Source: an uncultured Clostridia bacterium (GTDB taxonomy: Bacteria; CAYTYR01; UBA6262). Taken from it: a DNA stretch of 64,000 bases. The position numbers and the translations under genes are program-made. Positions 50,492-57,800 of this stretch are shown here, in pieces; positions within the stretch are counted from its first letter, which is position 1; the number at the start of each line of letters is the position of its first letter. The notes beneath the pieces were generated by a model. That model worked only from the letters and a program-made list of their open reading frames with translations, made no database searches and was not told where the DNA came from. Location: positions 62,001-126,000 of the forward strand of contig CAYTYR010000001.1 in NCBI GenBank assembly GCA_964441745.1, written 5' to 3'.

Positions 50492-50614
50492 TACTACCTC
50501 CTCTAAAATGACTGCCAGGATTTTAAAAGAAGATTACACAGAGGGAACCAAGCTTATATTATCAAAATAGGCCTCAGTAGTCAACCAATTTAGTACTGAC
50601 AACAACTAACCGGG

Positions 50615-50667
50615 AAAACAAAACCGGGTACAAAATTACATTTATATTGTAACTTTTGTACCCGGTT
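50615..50667 (-). terminator. Long hairpin terminator after the rrf2-SOR operon
   Basis: AACCGGGTACAAAA...TTTTGTACCCGGTT followed by TTGTTTT on the minus strand. Confidence 0.7.
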
Positions 50668-50712
50668 AATATTAGTTTGTTCTCTACCACTTTATCACTC
50701 TATCACTAGTGC

Positions 50713-51150
50713 CTATAACTGTACTTCGGCCATCCATTTCCCATGGACATTGCAATTTTCAATAGCCGTGACCTGGCCAGCGCCTGATTTAAAATGAATA
50801 CTGACGACAGGATTAATCTTTTCTGCCGCCAGATGGTACCTGGCCACCCATTTATAATCCTGGTAAACATCGATCCACATGATCCAGTGTTTGGCCTCCA
50901 TCACATGCAGGATTTCTCCTATTTTAATGTTAACATCCACACACCCCGGCGCCAAGCTGCATTGTTTATTTACGGTAAATACCGGGACATGTTTCTTATC
51001 CCCTTCAGTCAAATTCTTCGGGTCAGCTGGTTTTTTCAACGCATTGGCATCTTCTGTAAAAGCTTTTTTAGGCGCTCCGCAGACCGGGCATTTTTCCGGC
51101 GCCTCGCCAAATTCTATATGCCCGCACATCCCACAGACAAACATCTTCAT
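50713..51150 (-). CDS. Superoxide reductase with N-terminal rubredoxin-like domain
   Basis: CGMCG...CPVCG, KKHVP, HVMEAKHWI, NCNVHG. Confidence 0.85.
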   Translation of the reverse strand: MKMFVCGMCGHIEFGEAPEKCPVCGAPKKAFTEDANALKKPADPKNLTEGDKKHVPVFTVNKQCSLAPGCVDVNIKIGEILHVMEAKHWIMWIDVYQDYKWVARYHLAAEKINPVVSIHFKSGAGQVTAIENCNVHGKWMAEVQL

Positions 51151-51162
51151 ACCATCCCCCTC

Positions 51163-51483
51163 TTATTTAACCGCGTAATCACCTTTACGCCGGTCGTCAA
51201 GTTCTCCCAGTTTGGATTTATTCCAATTGCTGGTTTTGCTGTAGTATCCGACGATCCTGGTAATATGGTCTATGACCCTGGCTTCTCCGCCATCTAAGAC
51301 CCGCTTCAAATTAAGCCAGTCATAATTCAAAATACTATCAACGGCAATCTTATACTTTTGGCTATCCTTGGTATTGAGTACCACCACATAGTCATCTTTG
51401 CTGGCCCCGCTGTGATCCTCGGCTACGAGTTGTAAATATCCGCTCTTCTCGATTTCATCGACAAAGTTCTGGATATCCTGCAT
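51163..51483 (-). CDS. Small protein carrying the NrdD (class III RNR) glycyl-radical C-terminal motif
   Basis: ITRIVGYYSKTSNWNKSKLGELDDR; 106 aa; strong RBS GGGGGTG. Confidence 0.8.
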   Translation of the reverse strand: MQDIQNFVDEIEKSGYLQLVAEDHSGASKDDYVVVLNTKDSQKYKIAVDSILNYDWLNLKRVLDGGEARVIDHITRIVGYYSKTSNWNKSKLGELDDRRKGDYAVK

Positions 51484-51513
51484 GTTTTCACCCCCTTTTA
51501 AATTTTATTTAAA

Positions 51514-51939
51514 TTATTCTTCTGCCTGGACCCGGGCTTTAACTAATGCCGCCAGAGTCACCTTATGAAGAGCCTGATCGATATTCTTTTGTACCTGGCG
51601 CAACTGCTTATGGATCGGGCACTGCCTAATCCGGGAACAGCGTCCATGTTCGATAAAACAACGGTTAACCGCAAACCCGCCCTGGGCTATTTCCATTATT
51701 TCCCCTAAAGATAATTTATTCATTTCCCGGTGCAGTGAATACCCGCCGCCAAAACGGCCGCGGTGTGATTTAATTATATCCCGGCGCTGCAGCTTCTGCA
51801 GGATCTTATGTAAATAAACTAAAGGCACATCTTCACTAGCCGCCAAATCCTTGGCGAAAATTATATGGCCCTTTTTATACTGGCCCATTAAGGTCAGGAC
51901 CCGCAGGGCATAATCCGTATTTCTCCTGATCAGTTCCAT
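51514..51939 (-). CDS. Rrf2-family regulator with Fe-S cysteine triad
   Basis: TDYALR, YLHKILQKL, S.RG..GGY.L, C-x6-C-x5-C. Confidence 0.9.
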   Translation of the reverse strand: MELIRRNTDYALRVLTLMGQYKKGHIIFAKDLAASEDVPLVYLHKILQKLQRRDIIKSHRGRFGGGYSLHREMNKLSLGEIMEIAQGGFAVNRCFIEHGRCSRIRQCPIHKQLRQVQKNIDQALHKVTLAALVKARVQAEE

Positions 51940-51960
51940 TTATTCCTTTCTGCCTTGTCT

Positions 51961-52000
51961 TATACAGGACTATAATAATCTTATATAAAAAAATTGTCAA
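51961..52000 (-). promoter_or_regulatory. Promoter with overlapping imperfect palindrome (candidate Rrf2 operator)
   Basis: TTGACA-N17-TATTAT; TATACAGGACT-N5-AATCTTATATA centred on the -10 box. Confidence 0.6.
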
Positions 52001-52008
52001 GTAAAATC

Positions 52009-53196
52009 TTATTTATTCTTAAAATACTTCTCCAGAACCCTGCTTAATTTCTGGTTTTTAACAAAGTTCTCTGTTTGCCAGGAAACAGCCATCTCTTTTT
52101 TCCGTTTGGGCCATTCTGTGGCAAATGTTTCCACTCCCGTGGTCTTACTCCAACGGTTGATCCACGACGGATTATCCAAGTATTGGTAAATACCATCAGG
52201 GAAAAGTCCCCCGGCCACCGCCTTATAGGTCCAATAGGTATAATGGATCCCGTATTTTTTGAAGATCTCAAGCACATCCCTGACCCAGGCCAGTTCCGTG
52301 CCGCAATCAGGACAGCGTGAATTAACCCCGAATTCACCGCAGTATATCGGGATCCGATATTTTTGCTGAAATTTAACATAACGCCGCAAGATATTTTCCA
52401 TTTTATTACGGTTCCAGAGTTCACCGTTTATTTTTCCCGGATAACGCAAATTACGGACACAATTAAAGGTAAAATCGCCGGGCAGGTAATAATGAAAACT
52501 AAAACCCATTTGACTGTCCCAGGGCTGTCCCAGGAAATCAAATTCCTGCGACCAGTTATGGCCTTCGACCAAGATAATATGCTGGTCCCCGGCCGCCCTG
52601 ATGGCTTGAGTGATCTTGACATATGTTTCTTTAATCATCGGCAAGTCAGCGCCAACAGCTTCGTTTAAGATATCATAAGCGGCAATGACCGGCTCATGCT
52701 TATACCGTTGAGCGATCTGGGACCAGAGCTGATAGGTCTGTTCCCGATATTTTCTCTTTTCCCAAAGGAGAGCTTTACCTTTAGAATCGCTGTGCCAGTC
52801 GCCATTCTGCGATCCCGGGGCAGCATGCAGATCCAGAATAATATAGATTTTATGCTCTTTGGCCCAAAACAGCGCTTGGTCCAGGAAATGCCACTGTTTT
52901 TCTTTTACGATCTTATAATGAAACGGCAGCCTGATACAAGTAGCGCCAAGGTTATGAATATGATCAAAATCCTCTTCCTGGATAAAACTACCGCGAAAGG
53001 CTTTTTCAAACTGGTCCAGAGCTTTCTTGCCGCTGGCTTTGGCTATCGCCGCTTTAAAAATATGCTCGGATATATGACGGCCCCCTAAAATATATCCTTC
53101 CATCATGAGCCAGCCGCCAAGGTTCACCCCGCGCAGGTTAACCGGCTGGTTTGCGCGATCAATTATTTTGCCATCCTTAATGCTTAAAAAATCCAT
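52009..53196 (-). CDS. Glycoside hydrolase family 5
   Basis: GVNLGGW, IRLPF, LDLHAAPG, YDILNE, FHYY, CGEFG. Start is ATG 53196; no signal peptide seen. Confidence 0.88.
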   Translation of the reverse strand: MDFLSIKDGKIIDRANQPVNLRGVNLGGWLMMEGYILGGRHISEHIFKAAIAKASGKKALDQFEKAFRGSFIQEEDFDHIHNLGATCIRLPFHYKIVKEKQWHFLDQALFWAKEHKIYIILDLHAAPGSQNGDWHSDSKGKALLWEKRKYREQTYQLWSQIAQRYKHEPVIAAYDILNEAVGADLPMIKETYVKITQAIRAAGDQHIILVEGHNWSQEFDFLGQPWDSQMGFSFHYYLPGDFTFNCVRNLRYPGKINGELWNRNKMENILRRYVKFQQKYRIPIYCGEFGVNSRCPDCGTELAWVRDVLEIFKKYGIHYTYWTYKAVAGGLFPDGIYQYLDNPSWINRWSKTTGVETFATEWPKRKKEMAVSWQTENFVKNQKLSRVLEKYFKNK

Positions 53197-54866: not shown

Positions 54867-57800
54867 CTAACAATAGATATCGATCTGTTTGGCTTCCTGG
54901 GACCTGATCCTGATAGCCGCATTATGGCCGATAATACTGCCTGTGATCACTTCTTTAGTACCATCGAGCCAGATGATGGCCATGTTTGCTATCTTAAAGT
55001 CACTGGCAAAAGTATCAATATGCTTACTATTGTGATACACCAACTGAGTAGTACCCAGGAACTTACAGCTGAATATACCCTCCCTGGTAAAATAACTTTT
55101 TGGCAGCGCGGGTTTAAATTCCAGGGTCAGTTCACCCTGGTTATTTAACTTAAATGGTTTCCCGCCCACAGTCATCAGTATCCACATCTCCAGAAATTCA
55201 GCAGTAGAACCGCTCAAACGTGCTACGCAGCCGCGGCCCCACATCCGGCTGTCCGGGAAAGCGCTGGAAACGATAAAAGACGAGTTTTCCAGTATGCTCC
55301 GCCCATAAATCGAAGCTTTTTGGAAACAGACACCGGCTTTTTCAAATTCAGCAAAAAATTCTTCATATAAACCGCCATTGAGCAGTTCTAATAAGTATTT
55401 ATATTCCATATGCAGCCAGATCGATTCGTTTTCCAGCCAGCCGGGAGAAAAAACCGTGCACCGGCCAAAATCCGCCGGTTCTTTGGCCAAGGAAGCGTTG
55501 ACCTTATACATTCCTAATTCCTGGTCATATAATGGGCTTCTCTTCATAGCTTCATATAGCTGCTTAACCTTATTATGGCTTTTTTCTGTTTTCAAGTAAT
55601 GAACTTCTGCTTCCAGGAATAAAGGTAATGGCCGCTTGCTGAATTTCTTGATTTCAACACAAGGCCAGCCTTTATGATTGTGTTTTTTACCTTTTTTATC
55701 CTTGATATAACTGAATTTTTCCGCTTTATGGGTATAATAGGTATAGTACAATCCAGAATTAGGATCAAGAGCTTTGGCCAGGCCAGCATCAATTTTCTGC
55801 AAACATAATTCCAGAAATTTCATATAGGCAGGCCCAAGGACTGGCTTTTCCTTGCCGCTGATACCAAACTTAGTTTCTTCGCGGTATTTTTCCTTCAGGC
55901 TGGTAGCTTTATCCCAAAAAGAATAAGCAGAAATTTTATCTGCGGAGGCCACTAAAGCCTGTAACCCCAGGAAAAACCGCTGCATTTCTTCAGGCAGGTT
56001 GATCTTGTAACCATTCTGGACACCAATTTTACCTAAATGGCTTTGCAGGAACTGGATCATTCTCTTTAATTCAAAGGTTTCCGGGACAGAGGAACCGAAT
56101 ACTCCTGACAAACCATTGAGCGCGTCATACCAGCTAGGCTTATCCGCTTCCATTTCCATGCCAATGCCATCAGGATCCAGGGTGGCTAATTTATTGAGCA
56201 AGAGGCAAGTCATCTTAACCAGTAGATTGGTTCTGTAAATATCGCCTTTCCCTTTTTTATCCCTGACAATATGGGCTTGACTGGCACGGTCCTTAAGCAG
56301 CTCTACTTTCTCCGGGCTGATGATGACTGCGCCGAATTGCCGGATCAGGCCGTTAGCGTCAACATATTTTTCATGCCGTGGCAGGACGATGTGGGCATTA
56401 TCGTAAAAAGTAAACTCTTTTTTCTCGAGCAATATCTCCTGTTCTTTTTCCGGATAAACAGCCAGATATGTTTCTAACAAATCTAAATTATAGGTCCAAT
56501 GGTCGGTCCAGAAACCTTCGCCATGCTCAGCTTCCCTGAGCCGCTGGGCTCGTCCGAAAATCTCCCGGAGCAGCTGTTCTTCGGAAACTTTCAGGGTAAT
56601 CTTATTCTGTTCGATAAAAAGAAGCAAACTGCCAGGTTCAAATTGCTTGGCAAAAAACCGGGCCAGCAGTTCCTGGCCTTTTTTGTCCGTGATCCTGGCC
56701 AGCGCTTTCTTGTTTCCCGCGCTCCCGGCCTTAAAAATAAAATAGGTCCCCTTAACCAATAATGGGTTATAACCATCCAATTGGACCAGGTTATAAAAAG
56801 TCACGACATTAGTATCAACCGTTTTCGGATCAAAGAAAATATCACAGCGTTTGTTCTGGTTAATATCGCGGAAATTACCATCGCCCTGCGAATAATAAGT
56901 CGGAGAGATCAGATAATTATTATAGTCACGCTCCAGGTCACCATGCTTGCGGGCAAAAACAAAAAAGGGGATACTGCTCTCCCCGGCTGGCAGCTTAACC
57001 GGCATGCCCCCGCGCAAAACATTATCCAGGTAAGTCTGCCGGCAATATAAATTGAATTCCCGTCGGCTGGATTGGGTCTGGATCGGCTCGGAAATATCCT
57101 GGATAATCTGTTTATTCTCATCCCGTTTACGGTTGAAATAGCCGACATCCCTGGCTTTCTCGAAATGATCATTCAGTTGTTGTTCACTGTCCACATGCCC
57201 GGTCATCGAGTAGATGGTCTGAGCCTGCCCGGCAGCCAAGGCGCATTTAAAGAAACTCATCGCCGCCGGATATTTATTGTCACCAAATTGTTTCACTGGC
57301 AGGATAAAATCCTGTTGCTTAATAAAGGCCGCTGGATAATTATAATCAGTGACTTCGCCAAAGATCAATTCCGGGTCAATGATCATCTGTGTTGGGTGTA
57401 ATTCCCCGTTAAGATTTTCCAGGGTAAAATAGAAGTTTCCCTCTTTCAGCGCATGTACTTCTGGCCGGTCACTGATTTCAACCTTTAATTGGTAAAAAGG
57501 CAGGCCGGTCTTTTCAAAATTAGTTACTTTGGCCCAAGCTTGGGCCGTGTGGCTCATATATTTCAGCACATCATTGCTTGTCCAATAGGGAATTATTTTT
57601 GGCAAGCCATCAATTACTTCCAGCTCAAGTTCATTATTACCGGTATTGATTACTTCGACGATACGCACTAGCGCTGCTATTGGCTCCTGCGGCAGGGTAA
57701 AGTACTTGACGATGATCTTGAGGCCAATAGTTTCATTAGTCTCTTCTAATATCAATTCGGCCGGATGAATGAACATTTTCTGAGTGGTTTTATAAGCATT

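What the first reader, a model, noticed from the sequence alone, without database searches (positions are those of the whole stretch)
50713..52000. Stand-alone NrdD glycyl-radical domain in an Rrf2/superoxide-reductase operon: a possible 'spare part' for class III RNR
Seen: a compact operon with a promoter overlapped by a palindrome, a Cys-triad Rrf2 regulator, a 106-aa protein, a rubredoxin-SOR fusion and a terminator. The 106-aa protein ends in ITRIVGYYSKTSNWNKSKLGELDDR. It has no catalytic barrel and no cysteines, so no Zn ribbon. Established: R-x-x-G-Y followed by W-N-x-x-K-x-x-E-x-x-D-R is the glycyl-radical C-terminus of anaerobic RNR NrdD; O2 cleaves glycyl-radical enzymes at this Gly; GrcA/YfiD rescues cleaved pyruvate formate-lyase as an autonomous radical domain. 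Inference: this is the RNR analogue of GrcA, induced together with superoxide defence, or alternatively a decoy or regulator of the NrdG activase.
Basis: partly seen in the sequence, partly recalled or inferred. Interest (0 to 1): 0.78.

Follow-up and report, generated by a model that had tools for sequence, protein, structure and literature searches.

The report
Stand-alone radical module for anaerobic RNR
A 106-residue protein carries only the radical-bearing tip of the anaerobic DNA-precursor enzyme NrdD and most likely plugs into that enzyme as a replaceable part, a repair trick so far shown for just one other enzyme.

Summary
On the minus strand lie a near-consensus promoter, a three-Cys Rrf2 regulator, a Cys-free 106-aa ORF, a rubredoxin-SOR fusion and a terminator hairpin. 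Only the promoter "palindrome" is weak.

The 106-aa protein is a folded N-domain of unassigned fold plus a canonical NrdD glycyl-radical loop (TRIVG79YYS...NWNKSKLGEL.DR).

It belongs to an undescribed family of about 100-145 aa proteins: 585 representative clusters at E<=1e-10. Members occur in Elusimicrobiota, Planctomycetota (anammox), other phyla and phages.

Comparative genomics supplies the key evidence:
- I could read the NrdD C-terminus in 67 of the 79 genomes that carry the small gene.
- In 26 of those 67, NrdD lacks the radical Gly (6 truncated at the Gly position, 20 with a degenerate tail).
- In 15 of those 26, no other RNR was found, so the small protein must supply the radical in trans.
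- In 41 genomes, as in the window's own, NrdD is intact and the small gene is an extra copy.
- All seven near-complete phage genomes searched carry the small gene and no NrdD.

In the window genome NrdD is the only RNR and the only glycyl-radical enzyme found. The small gene is under strong purifying selection (dN/dS 0.02-0.08). A complex model docks it into Gly-cleaved NrdD (ipSAE 0.89; best control 0.08).

Best reading: an RNR analogue of GrcA. No experiment supports this yet.

The parts
51972..52000 (-). Sigma-70-type promoter TTGACA-17 nt-TATTAT upstream of the Rrf2 gene
   Evidence: 11 of 12 consensus positions match. The overlapping AT-rich 13-nt palindrome is weak, 77% self-complementary.
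51514..51939 (-). Rrf2-family regulator, 141 aa, with three Cys (94, 101, 107) of the kind that bind an Fe-S cluster in IscR and NsrR-type sensors
   Evidence: PF02082, E 4.9e-29. TIGR00738, 94.3 bits against a cut-off of 73.3. Cys positions. Fe-S binding is inferred from the family and was not tested.
51163..51483 (-). 106-aa autonomous NrdD-type glycyl-radical protein, the focus of this report
   Evidence: dN/dS is 0.017-0.081 against orthologues.
51295..51483 (-). N-terminal domain, residues 1-63: a folded alpha-beta3-alpha2 domain specific to the family. It stands where NrdD has its Zn ribbon, and it has no Cys.
   Evidence: block pLDDT 75-91 (five of the six 10-residue blocks 83-91). Secondary structure H4-14, E17-23, E32-37, E42-47, H48-53, H56-63; no confident fold match (best Z 5.5); residues 34, 42-50 and 54-63 touch NrdD in the model.
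51166..51285 (-). Glycyl-radical hairpin and following helix, residues 67-106, homologous to the NrdD C-terminus
   Evidence: NRDD profile positions 532-561; aligns to residues 704-735 of the solved Prevotella NrdD 8P23; residues 67-84 and 87-106 form the interface with NrdD, including the finger-loop residues 482-483.
51247..51249 (-). Codon of Gly79, the predicted radical site (GGA)
   Evidence: Read. Gly79 is invariant in 72 of 72 aligned family members.
50713..51150 (-). Superoxide reductase of 145 aa with an N-terminal rubrerythrin-type rubredoxin domain
   Evidence: PF21349, E 4.8e-10, and PF01880, E 1.3e-18.
50622..50667 (-). Intrinsic-terminator hairpin: perfect 14-nt arms, 18-nt loop, T-rich tail on the minus strand
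   Evidence: The consensus scan missed it because the loop is longer than 8 nt.

Best explanation
The 106-aa ORF encodes a stand-alone glycyl-radical module for the class III ribonucleotide reductase NrdD.

Proposed mechanism (inferred):
1. An NrdG-type radical-SAM activase abstracts a hydrogen atom from Gly79, which sits in the conserved R-I-V-G-Y hairpin.
2. The activated hairpin and its following helix insert into the NrdD barrel next to the Cys-Cys finger loop.
3. The family-specific N-domain docks on the NrdD surface near the Zn ribbon.
4. The radical is then available to generate the catalytic thiyl radical in trans.

In several other lineages this is the only way NrdD can obtain a radical, because those NrdDs lack the Gly. 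In the window's genome NrdD has its own loop, so the module is an accessory copy.

NrdD is this organism's only RNR. The gene is co-transcribed with a superoxide reductase, behind a putative Fe-S Rrf2 sensor. The most likely role is therefore to re-arm NrdD whose own glycyl-radical loop was destroyed by O2. That would make it a class III RNR counterpart of GrcA/YfiD.

Shown: gene structure, family, comparative patterns and the predicted interface. Inferred: activation by NrdG, insertion into NrdD, induction by stress, and rescue.
For: 1. Motif. The canonical NrdD Gly loop is invariant across 72 family members, including positions well beyond the short stretch around the Gly: N86, W87, N88, S90, K91, E94, L95, R98, G101, Y103. 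That an activase needs only the short stretch is from recall. The loop aligns to the Gly-loop region of the solved NrdD 8P23.

2. Natural split enzymes. 79 genomes lie behind the 80 best loci.
- In 6 genomes NrdD stops 2 residues before to 3 residues after the position of the radical Gly. In 5 loci the small gene lies directly downstream of nrdG-nrdD.
- In 20 genomes NrdD has a degenerate tail with D, S or E where the Gly should be.
- The catalytic residues, including C481-C482-R483, stay invariant across 21 NrdDs of all three states.
- 15 of these 26 genomes show no class I or class II RNR.

3. Phages. 25 of 26 viral records searched have only the small gene. All 7 of the 7 records that are at least 90% complete lack NrdD. 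Phage hallmark genes lie beside the small gene.

4. Window genome.
- NrdD is intact and two NrdG2 activases are present.
- No PF02867, PF02901 or PF01228 match was found in a genome that is 98.3% complete.

5. Selection. dN/dS is 0.017-0.081 in the 11 orthologue pairs with a defined dS.

6. Complex model. Window NrdD residues 115-779 plus the small protein gave ipSAE 0.89 (runs 0.83, 0.89, 0.90) against a best control of 0.08.
- This mark was reached by 116 of 157 solved complexes and by 2 of 215 mismatched pairs.
- The runs agree in at least 93% of contacts, and the partner's pLDDT is at least 83.
- The interface includes NrdD residues 482-483, 742-752 and 768-779.
- The pass may reflect likeness to the intramolecular packing seen in solved NrdD structures.

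7. Operon. The small gene is tightly spaced with the Rrf2 and SOR genes. Small-SOR adjacency holds in 6 of 6 family genomes that carry the gene.
Against: No experiment exists for any member of the family. Radical formation, binding and rescue are all inferred.

The link to oxidative stress is phylogenetically shallow:
- The Rrf2-small-SOR operon is found in one genus, and small-SOR adjacency in one family.
- In about 31 Brocadiaceae genomes with an intact NrdD the neighbours are different.

How a resident intact loop, or a resident degenerate tail, would be displaced is unknown.

The complex model used NrdD already cut before Gly780, and such models can pass from memory of solved NrdD structures.

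Two of the 20 'degenerate' NrdDs keep a Gly at the aligned position, in a non-canonical R-[TL]-D-G-Y context (L130, L132).

Most genomes are MAGs of untold completeness, so 'no other RNR' is provisional.

The Rrf2 effector and operator are unknown. The promoter palindrome is weak.
Confidence: 0.6

Rival explanations
1. It is a routine alternative radical subunit and not a repair part. The small protein is used constitutively alongside NrdD's own loop. It might raise radical occupancy, or allow activation by the second NrdG paralogue under other conditions. On this view the SOR neighbourhood is incidental.
For: - In 26 of the 67 genomes where the NrdD C-terminus could be read, the family is the regular radical subunit.
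- Intact-NrdD genomes outside the window's family show no SOR or Rrf2 link.
- The window genome has a second bona fide NrdG2 paralogue (193 bits, 53% identical to the first) that is unlinked to nrdD.
Against: - The gene sits 12 nt upstream of the SOR gene and 30 nt downstream of the Rrf2 gene, with a single promoter and a single terminator.
- Small-SOR adjacency is kept in 6 of 6 family genomes.
- A redundant constitutive copy has no obvious advantage when NrdD carries its own loop.
Confidence: 0.2
2. It is a decoy or regulator of the NrdG activase. The free Gly loop competes with NrdD for NrdG, or stores a radical. This would limit futile activation of NrdD while O2 is present.
For: - It keeps the full Gly-loop recognition motif.
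- It is co-expressed with an oxidative-stress enzyme.
- Nothing here directly tests which protein it binds in vivo.
Against: - A decoy cannot explain genomes whose only NrdD lacks the Gly and which have no other RNR, 15 genomes.
- It also does not explain conservation of the post-Gly helix and the G101-x-Y103 tail, which contact NrdD in the model.
- Phages without NrdD would gain little by blocking host dNTP supply.
Confidence: 0.1
3. It is an evolutionary leftover of a formerly split nrdD, or a phage-derived gene, with no present function in this genome.
For: - The family occurs in phages.
- The NrdD-state label changes at least 5 times on the small-protein tree, so gain and loss are frequent.
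Against: - dN/dS is 0.017-0.081, with dS 0.69-3.25, among the window's orthologues, all of which sit in genomes with an intact NrdD.
- The ribosome-binding site and operon position are intact.
- The gene is found in 6 of the 7 genomes of the window's family f1, the window's own included.
Confidence: 0.04
4. It serves a glycyl-radical enzyme other than NrdD.
For: One relative, L045, lies two genes upstream of a PFL-like enzyme.
Against: - The window genome has no PFL-like domain and no Gly_radical domain.
- The loop is of NrdD type and matches no PF01228 model.
Confidence: 0.02

Closest known systems
GrcA/YfiD of E. coli and Y06I of phage T4, the autonomous glycyl-radical cofactors that act as spare parts for pyruvate formate-lyase
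   Same: - It is a small protein (106 aa against about 127 aa) consisting of a non-catalytic N-terminal part plus a copy of the parent enzyme's C-terminal Gly-radical loop.
- The parent enzyme keeps its own loop.
- Phage-encoded versions exist.
- The proposed steps are the same: activation by the parent's activase, then replacement of the O2-cleaved loop. That mechanism was read in passages of PMC13450708 and PMC8683613.
   Different: - The parent enzyme is different: class III RNR, not PFL.
- It has no match to PF01228.
- Its N-terminal part is predicted to be folded, whereas YfiD's is described as disordered.
- The same family also serves as the obligatory radical subunit where NrdD lacks the Gly. 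I did not find this described for PFL and GrcA.
- It has not been tested experimentally.
The C-terminal glycyl-radical domain of NrdD (PF13597 / TIGR02487; solved examples include 8P23)
   Same: The R-I-V-G-Y hairpin and the N-W-N-x-S-K-x-G-E-L-x-D-R helix are homologous. Residues 71-100 are 67% identical to the window's own NrdD.
   Different: - It has no catalytic barrel and no ATP cone.
- It has no Cys4 Zn ribbon. An unrelated 63-residue domain stands in that place.
The split class II RNR NrdJa/NrdJb of Pseudomonas aeruginosa
   Same: It is a precedent for an RNR catalytic chain whose C-terminal part is encoded by a separate gene. This was read in a passage of PMC9669993.
   Different: - It is class II, which uses adenosylcobalamin.
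- The split-off part carries IscU-like and Zn-finger domains and is not the radical site.
- No accessory 'extra copy' arrangement is described for it.
The class I RNR beta subunit (NrdB/NrdF)
   Same: By function only: a separate small subunit harbours the stable radical that is passed to the catalytic subunit (general knowledge, from recall).
   Different: - The fold is unrelated (ferritin-like).
- It carries a tyrosyl or metal-centred radical.
- Radical formation depends on O2.

Membership tests
GrcA/YfiD autonomous glycyl radical cofactor (Pfam PF01228 Gly_radical) | Sequence match to the PFL-type Gly_radical domain | tested here: not met
   at E<=1 only PF13597 matched and PF01228 gave no hit; no PF01228 match anywhere in the genome.
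GrcA/YfiD autonomous glycyl radical cofactor (Pfam PF01228 Gly_radical) | A small stand-alone protein that ends in the parent enzyme's radical-Gly loop, while the parent keeps its own loop | tested here: met
   a 106-aa ORF carrying the loop, and an NrdD of 841 aa with its own G780 loop.
GrcA/YfiD autonomous glycyl radical cofactor (Pfam PF01228 Gly_radical) | The radical is installed by the parent's activase, and the protein rescues the O2-cleaved enzyme | not testable with these tools
   This needs EPR and activity assays. One search gives only a supportive docking model.
NrdD, anaerobic ribonucleoside-triphosphate reductase (PF13597, TIGR02487) | Ten-stranded catalytic barrel with the finger-loop Cys | tested here: not met
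   only profile positions 532-561 of 562 (Pfam) and 550-580 of 581 (TIGR02487) are matched. TIGR02487 scores 22.6 bits against a cut-off of 326.
NrdD, anaerobic ribonucleoside-triphosphate reductase (PF13597, TIGR02487) | Cys4 Zn ribbon preceding the Gly loop | tested here: not met
   the 106 residues contain no Cys.
NrdD, anaerobic ribonucleoside-triphosphate reductase (PF13597, TIGR02487) | C-terminal radical-Gly motif R-x-x-G-Y ... N-W-N ... E-L-x-D-R | tested here: met
Small NrdD-type glycyl-radical proteins (a family delineated here, with no curated model found) | Length about 95-150 aa, a variable alpha/beta N-domain with a conserved Phe near residue 7, then the invariant T-R-I-V-G-Y-[YF]-S ... 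N-W-N-K-S-K-[LI]-G-E-L-x-D-R-x-x-G-x-Y | tested here: met
   the best 150 representatives all match near-full-length. No dedicated model exists in Pfam, NCBIfam or PHROGs.
Rrf2 family Fe-S transcription regulators | Rrf2 winged-helix domain plus three C-terminal Cys ligands | tested here: met
   PF02082, 101.6 bits. Cys94, Cys101 and Cys107. Cluster binding itself is not testable here.
Superoxide reductase (desulfoferrodoxin ferrous-iron domain) | PF01880 / TIGR00332 domain | tested here: met
   PF01880 scores 67.8 bits against a cut-off of 22.2. TIGR00332 scores 54.2 bits, below its cut-off of 61.9.

The most novel reading that the evidence does not exclude
Class III RNR exists in nature as a two-component enzyme. 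Its radical-bearing tip is a separately encoded, exchangeable cartridge, the protein family described here.

Three uses follow:
- In some lineages the cartridge is the only radical source for NrdD.
- Strict anaerobes such as the window organism keep it as a spare, under oxidative-stress control, to re-arm their only RNR without resynthesising an 841-aa enzyme.
- Phages carry it alone, to load host NrdD with a fresh radical site and sustain dNTP supply during infection.

If true, this would be the first spare-part system for a glycyl-radical enzyme other than PFL, and the first split class III RNR.
Probability: 0.5. Interest if true: 0.9.

Novelty: new variant of a known kind. Interest (0 to 1): 0.82.

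Why it matters
A June 2026 review of glycyl-radical enzymes addresses this directly. [quoted passage not shown] A 2021 paper raises the same possibility (PMC8683613, passage read).

This locus and its family make that question directly testable for the class III RNR, the enzyme on which DNA synthesis depends in many strict anaerobes.

The naturally split enzymes provide a ready positive control for biochemistry. They also suggest how an O2-sensitive essential enzyme can be kept working in organisms that meet transient oxygen, including anammox bacteria.

The phage-borne copies point to an auxiliary gene class I found described in none of five literature searches. It would act on host nucleotide metabolism.

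Tried and rejected
- **Fold of the N-domain.** Foldseek against the PDB gave no hit at E<=1e-3. VIA-align over 48,161 chains gave a best Z of 5.5 (HicA and dsRBD-like small alpha/beta proteins), which the tool says can reflect only a common arrangement (Z under 8), so no fold was assigned.
- **Fused forms of the N-domain.** A 'longer' search with residues 1-68 found 7 candidates, and none scored E<=0.001. This is weak evidence. The only long protein among the best 150 representatives is P0166, 802 aa, in which the module precedes a family A DNA polymerase. That may be a phage fusion or a gene-calling merge.
- **PHROGs.** No family matched the window protein or 4 phage versions.
- **Expression.** No RNA holder was listed for window 50600-52010, so no reads were laid.
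- **PF27822.** This accession is pre-computed on relative P0093 but is not in the local Pfam copy, so I could not see what it is.
- **Second NrdG paralogue as a general partner.** Rejected. Brocadia pituitae (intact NrdD plus the small gene) has a single NrdG2.
- **Pfam end coordinate as a proxy for an intact Gly loop.** Rejected. G052 matched profile positions 1-560 yet lacks the Gly. States were therefore read from the sequences.
- **Literature.** Five full-text searches found no paper describing an NrdD spare part, a stand-alone NrdD Gly-loop protein or a split NrdD. Subscription-only papers are not covered by these searches.
Full report
**1. What is in the window**

Between 52000 and 50620 on the minus strand lies a compact three-gene unit.

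- **Promoter.** TTGACA-17-TATTAT, matching 11 of 12 consensus positions.
- **Rrf2 regulator.** 141 aa, PF02082 at E 4.9e-29, with Cys94, Cys101 and Cys107.
- **106-aa ORF.** It starts 30 nt after the Rrf2 stop codon.
- **Superoxide reductase.** 145 aa, starting 12 nt after the 106-aa ORF. It has an N-terminal rubrerythrin-type rubredoxin domain.
- **Terminator.** A hairpin with perfect 14-nt arms and a T-rich tail.

The 106-aa protein has no cysteine. Pfam NRDD matches only residues 69-100, which correspond to profile positions 532-561 of 562. TIGR02487 likewise matches only the last 31 positions.

**2.

The window is part of contig C1 of a 2.07-Mb genome in 39 contigs, 98.3% complete.

Contig C17 encodes a full-length NrdD of 841 aa. 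It has a Zn ribbon and its own loop, GITRIVG780YYSRTDNWNLSKIGELRDR. Next to it lies a 233-aa activase that scores 195 bits on TIGR02495 (NrdG2) against a cut-off of 131.

A second NrdG2 paralogue, 53% identical and scoring 193 bits, lies on C1 about 18 kb beyond the window's end.

The genome shows no class I or II RNR (PF02867), no PFL-like enzyme (PF02901) and no PFL-type Gly_radical domain (PF01228). NrdD is therefore the only RNR and the only glycyl-radical enzyme detected, and it is the only plausible partner of the small protein.

**3. A real and widespread family**

- A word-indexed search found 260 proteins of 58-186 aa at E<=1e-3. All that carry a source name are called 'hypothetical'.
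- A profile of 72 members, searched against 1.84 billion representatives, found 944 proteins at E<=1e-3 and 585 at E<=1e-10. The best 150 match nearly end to end and are 74-209 aa long, apart from one 802-aa fusion to a family A DNA polymerase.
- R76, I77, V78, G79, Y80, N86, W87, N88, S90, K91, E94, L95, R98, G101 and Y103 are invariant.
- The N-terminal ~65 residues can be aligned but are variable.
- AlphaFold2 gives mean pLDDT 78. It predicts a folded alpha-beta3-alpha2 N-domain (block pLDDT 75-91), a beta-hairpin with Gly79 at its tip, and a helix at 84-100 with lower confidence.
- No confident fold match was found for the N-domain.
- No dedicated model exists in Pfam, NCBIfam or PHROGs.
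- The profile aligns to residues 704-735 of the solved Prevotella NrdD 8P23.

**4. The decisive comparative result**

A scan of one genome per GTDB species matched 580 stretches, of which 545 encode a relative. These 545 include ordinary NrdD C-termini. The best 80 loci, almost all covering most or all of the query's length, come mostly from Elusimicrobiota and Planctomycetota (Brocadiales). Single loci come from Omnitrophota, Auribacterota, Clostridia, Oscillospiraceae, Ignavibacteriaceae, Armatimonadota and a Methanobacteriota archaeon.

I searched the 79 genomes behind these loci for NrdD. I then read the NrdD C-termini from the DNA.

| NrdD state | Genomes | Notes |
|---|---|---|
| Intact Gly loop | 41 | |
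| Truncated | 6 | Ends 2 residues before to 3 residues after the position of the radical Gly, for example ...GVMRVE-stop |
| Degenerate tail | 20 | Recognisable tail without the canonical Gly, for example GLERVDDYNERLSNW or GIVRVDETEGLDGAW |
| Undetermined | 12 | Contig ends, no NrdD found, or the anchor motif was not matched |

Two of the 20 degenerate NrdDs keep a Gly in a non-canonical R-[TL]-D-G-Y context.

In five truncated or degenerate cases the small gene lies directly downstream of nrdG-nrdD (L014, L016, L017, L018, L086). In L016 and L018 the operon begins with an 89-aa CxxC redoxin.

An alignment of 21 NrdDs of all three states keeps the catalytic residues invariant, including C481-C482-R483.

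Of the 26 genomes whose NrdD lacks the radical Gly, 15 show no class I or II RNR (5 of the 6 truncated, 10 of the 20 degenerate). MAG completeness is not known. Unless those genomes hide another RNR, the small protein must deliver the glycyl radical in trans.

The truncated NrdDs look like the product of O2 cleavage at the Gly. NrdD ending at the Gly position plus the small protein therefore appears to be a working enzyme in nature.

**5. Accessory copies and phages**

In the 41 intact-NrdD genomes the small gene is an extra copy unlinked to nrdD. These are:

- the window's own lineage (in the window's own family, 6 of 7 genomes including the window's have both genes);
- about 31 Brocadiaceae;
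- single Planctomycetia, Omnitrophota, Clostridia and Oscillospiraceae genomes.

On a tree of 67 small proteins the 'intact' label needs at least 5 changes. The alignment is short and many forks are unresolved.

In viral contigs, 65 loci encode a relative. Of these, 49 have a small ORF with the motif and no Zn-ribbon anchor.

I searched 26 viral records whole:

- 25 hold only the small-type match.
- One (G090) holds an NrdD broken into three profile pieces within one 1630-aa open frame, probably by inteins. It ends at profile position 534, and a small gene lies a few kb away.
- All 7 of the 7 records that are at least 90% complete have the small gene and no NrdD.

A primase/helicase, a DNA polymerase and a portal protein lie beside the small gene in three of the four terminal-repeat (complete) records examined; the fourth gave only function-unknown matches. 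The nearest ESM Atlas clusters are 96-102 aa long and 67-70% viral.

This mirrors phage T4's Y06I, the GrcA homologue (title and passage seen). It argues that the module works on a host NrdD.

**6. The window's copy is functional and linked to SOR**

Among the window and five orthologues (L008-L012), dN/dS is 0.017-0.081 in the 11 pairs with a defined dS. In the other four pairs, all involving L012, dS was saturated. All of these genomes have an intact NrdD.

The small gene is followed by the SOR gene in all six genomes. The Rrf2 gene precedes it in five. L012, from another genus, lacks the Rrf2 gene.

An Rrf2 gene appears again two genes upstream of the small gene in an Omnitrophota locus, L081, beside a ferredoxin-like protein and a Rex-type repressor.

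Other neighbourhoods:

- Brocadiaceae: a Usp gene and an AmmeMemoRadiSam radical-SAM gene on the opposite strand, plus nitroreductase and HAD genes.
- L064: a hybrid-cluster protein.
- Elsewhere: unrelated genes.

The stress link is real in the window's family but is not a property of the whole family.

**7. Docking model**

I submitted window NrdD residues 115-779, cut before Gly780 and without the ATP cone, as an alignment of 21 rows. The partner was the small protein as an alignment of 72 rows.

- ipSAE was 0.83, 0.89 and 0.90 in the three runs (median 0.89), against a best control of 0.08.
- This mark was reached by 116 of 157 solved complexes and by 2 of 215 mismatched pairs.
- The runs agree in at least 93% of contacts, and the partner's pLDDT is at least 83.
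- The interface joins small-protein residues 67-84 and 87-106 to NrdD 482-483 (the Cys-Cys finger loop), 742-752 (the strand before the Zn ribbon) and the stub 768-779.
- N-domain residues 34, 42-50 and 54-63 also touch NrdD.

Because solved NrdD structures contain the same packing within one chain, this pass may show likeness and not independent evidence. The model supports binding and does not show it.

**8. Interpretation**

The best reading (confidence 0.6) is that the protein is an autonomous, NrdG-activated glycyl-radical module that plugs into NrdD. In this organism it acts as a spare part for its only RNR, expressed together with SOR under a putative Fe-S Rrf2 sensor.

The rivals are:

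- a routine second radical subunit with no repair role (0.2);
- an NrdG decoy or regulator (0.1);
- a relic with no present function (0.04);
- a partner of another glycyl-radical enzyme (0.02).

The degenerate-tail NrdDs suggest that the module can work even where a resident tail occupies the site. This parallels a paper I saw only as a title in reference lists (Kammel and Sawers 2022), which reports that GrcA restores inactive full-length PflB.

**9. Known or new**

It is not a member of the GrcA family (no PF01228 match). It is not an NrdD in the sense of the catalytic enzyme. It works like GrcA and shares homology only with the NrdD C-terminus.

- A June 2026 review says spare parts are known only for formate lyases and that their existence for other glycyl-radical enzymes is undetermined (PMC13450708, passage).
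- A 2022 analysis of RNR extensions mentions only split class II RNRs (PMC9669993, passages).
- Five full-text searches found no description of this family or of a split NrdD. Subscription-only literature was not searched.

I rate it a new variant of a known kind, with interest 0.82.

**10. Limits**

- Everything here is computational.
- Gene calls in related loci came from a simple longest-ORF rule. That rule once picked an antisense ORF over the SOR gene in L012, which I corrected.
- NrdD states were assigned by motif patterns.
- 14 of the 80 loci had no small ORF recognised by my pattern. They were left out of the neighbourhood table but not out of the NrdD tally.
- MAG incompleteness limits every statement of absence.

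Noticed in passing
G000:C1:144065-144634, about 18 kb beyond the window's end (locus L005 1075-1770, minus strand): A second bona fide NrdG2 activase (231 aa, 193 bits, 53% identical to the one beside nrdD) is unlinked to nrdD. It sits next to a CoA-binding protein, an Fe-S P-loop NTPase and a pyridine-nucleotide-disulfide oxidoreductase. It could be the activase dedicated to the small protein. Brocadia pituitae has only one NrdG2, so this is not general.
   Followed up: partly
About 27 Brocadiaceae loci, for example L021 6385-7395 (minus strand) and L074 6471-6929 (minus strand): The small gene is convergent with a universal stress protein gene and an AmmeMemoRadiSam radical-SAM enzyme (TIGR04337, 346 bits). 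That enzyme is related to glycyl-radical activases. In other Brocadiales the neighbours are Memo (TIGR04336) and a TIGR00725/SLOG protein. I did not test whether this is synteny or a functional link.
   Followed up: partly
Viral record G090 (locus L144), C1:45804-50297 and 55391-55489: One open frame of 1630 aa contains an NrdD in three profile pieces, probably interrupted by inteins. It ends at profile position 534, so it has no Gly loop. A 97-aa small Gly-loop gene lies about 5 kb away. This would be a phage-borne split class III RNR.
   Followed up: no
Protein P0166 (802 aa): A full small-protein module occupies residues 1-101 and is fused to a 3'-5' exonuclease and a family A DNA polymerase. 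In phage locus L143 a DNA polymerase gene lies close to the small gene. It may be a true fusion or a merged gene call.
   Followed up: partly
L016 685-954 and L018 2360-2629: An 89-aa CxxC redoxin (NrdH or glutaredoxin-like by eye, with no Pfam hit at 1e-5) opens the operon redoxin-nrdG-truncated nrdD-small gene. dUTPase and IMPDH/GMP-reductase genes follow in L016.
   Followed up: no
L071 5161-5958 and L081 2490-3329: A 265-279-aa protein lies directly upstream of the small gene in two distant lineages. It has an N-terminal 2x[4Fe-4S] ferredoxin domain and a Cys-rich C-terminal part. In L081 it is flanked by Rrf2 and a Rex-type repressor.
   Followed up: no
window 50713-51150 (minus strand): The superoxide reductase carries a rubrerythrin-type rubredoxin domain (PF21349) at its N-terminus. 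As I recall, classical desulfoferrodoxin carries a desulforedoxin domain there. The TIGR00320 dfx_rbo score is far below its cut-off (39.6 against 146.9 bits).
   Followed up: no
Protein P0093 (147 aa): This relative carries a pre-computed Pfam accession, PF27822.1, that is absent from the local Pfam copy. A newer Pfam release may already hold a model touching this family or its hydrophobic N-terminal extension.
   Followed up: partly
Marine-type viral loci L171, L176-L188, L192-L194, L197-L199: This is a phage subgroup of 138-148 aa. It has a longer N-domain and a conserved C-terminal extension ending in ...NSL or ...NGLS. Only residues 70-105 of the query align by tblastn.
   Followed up: no
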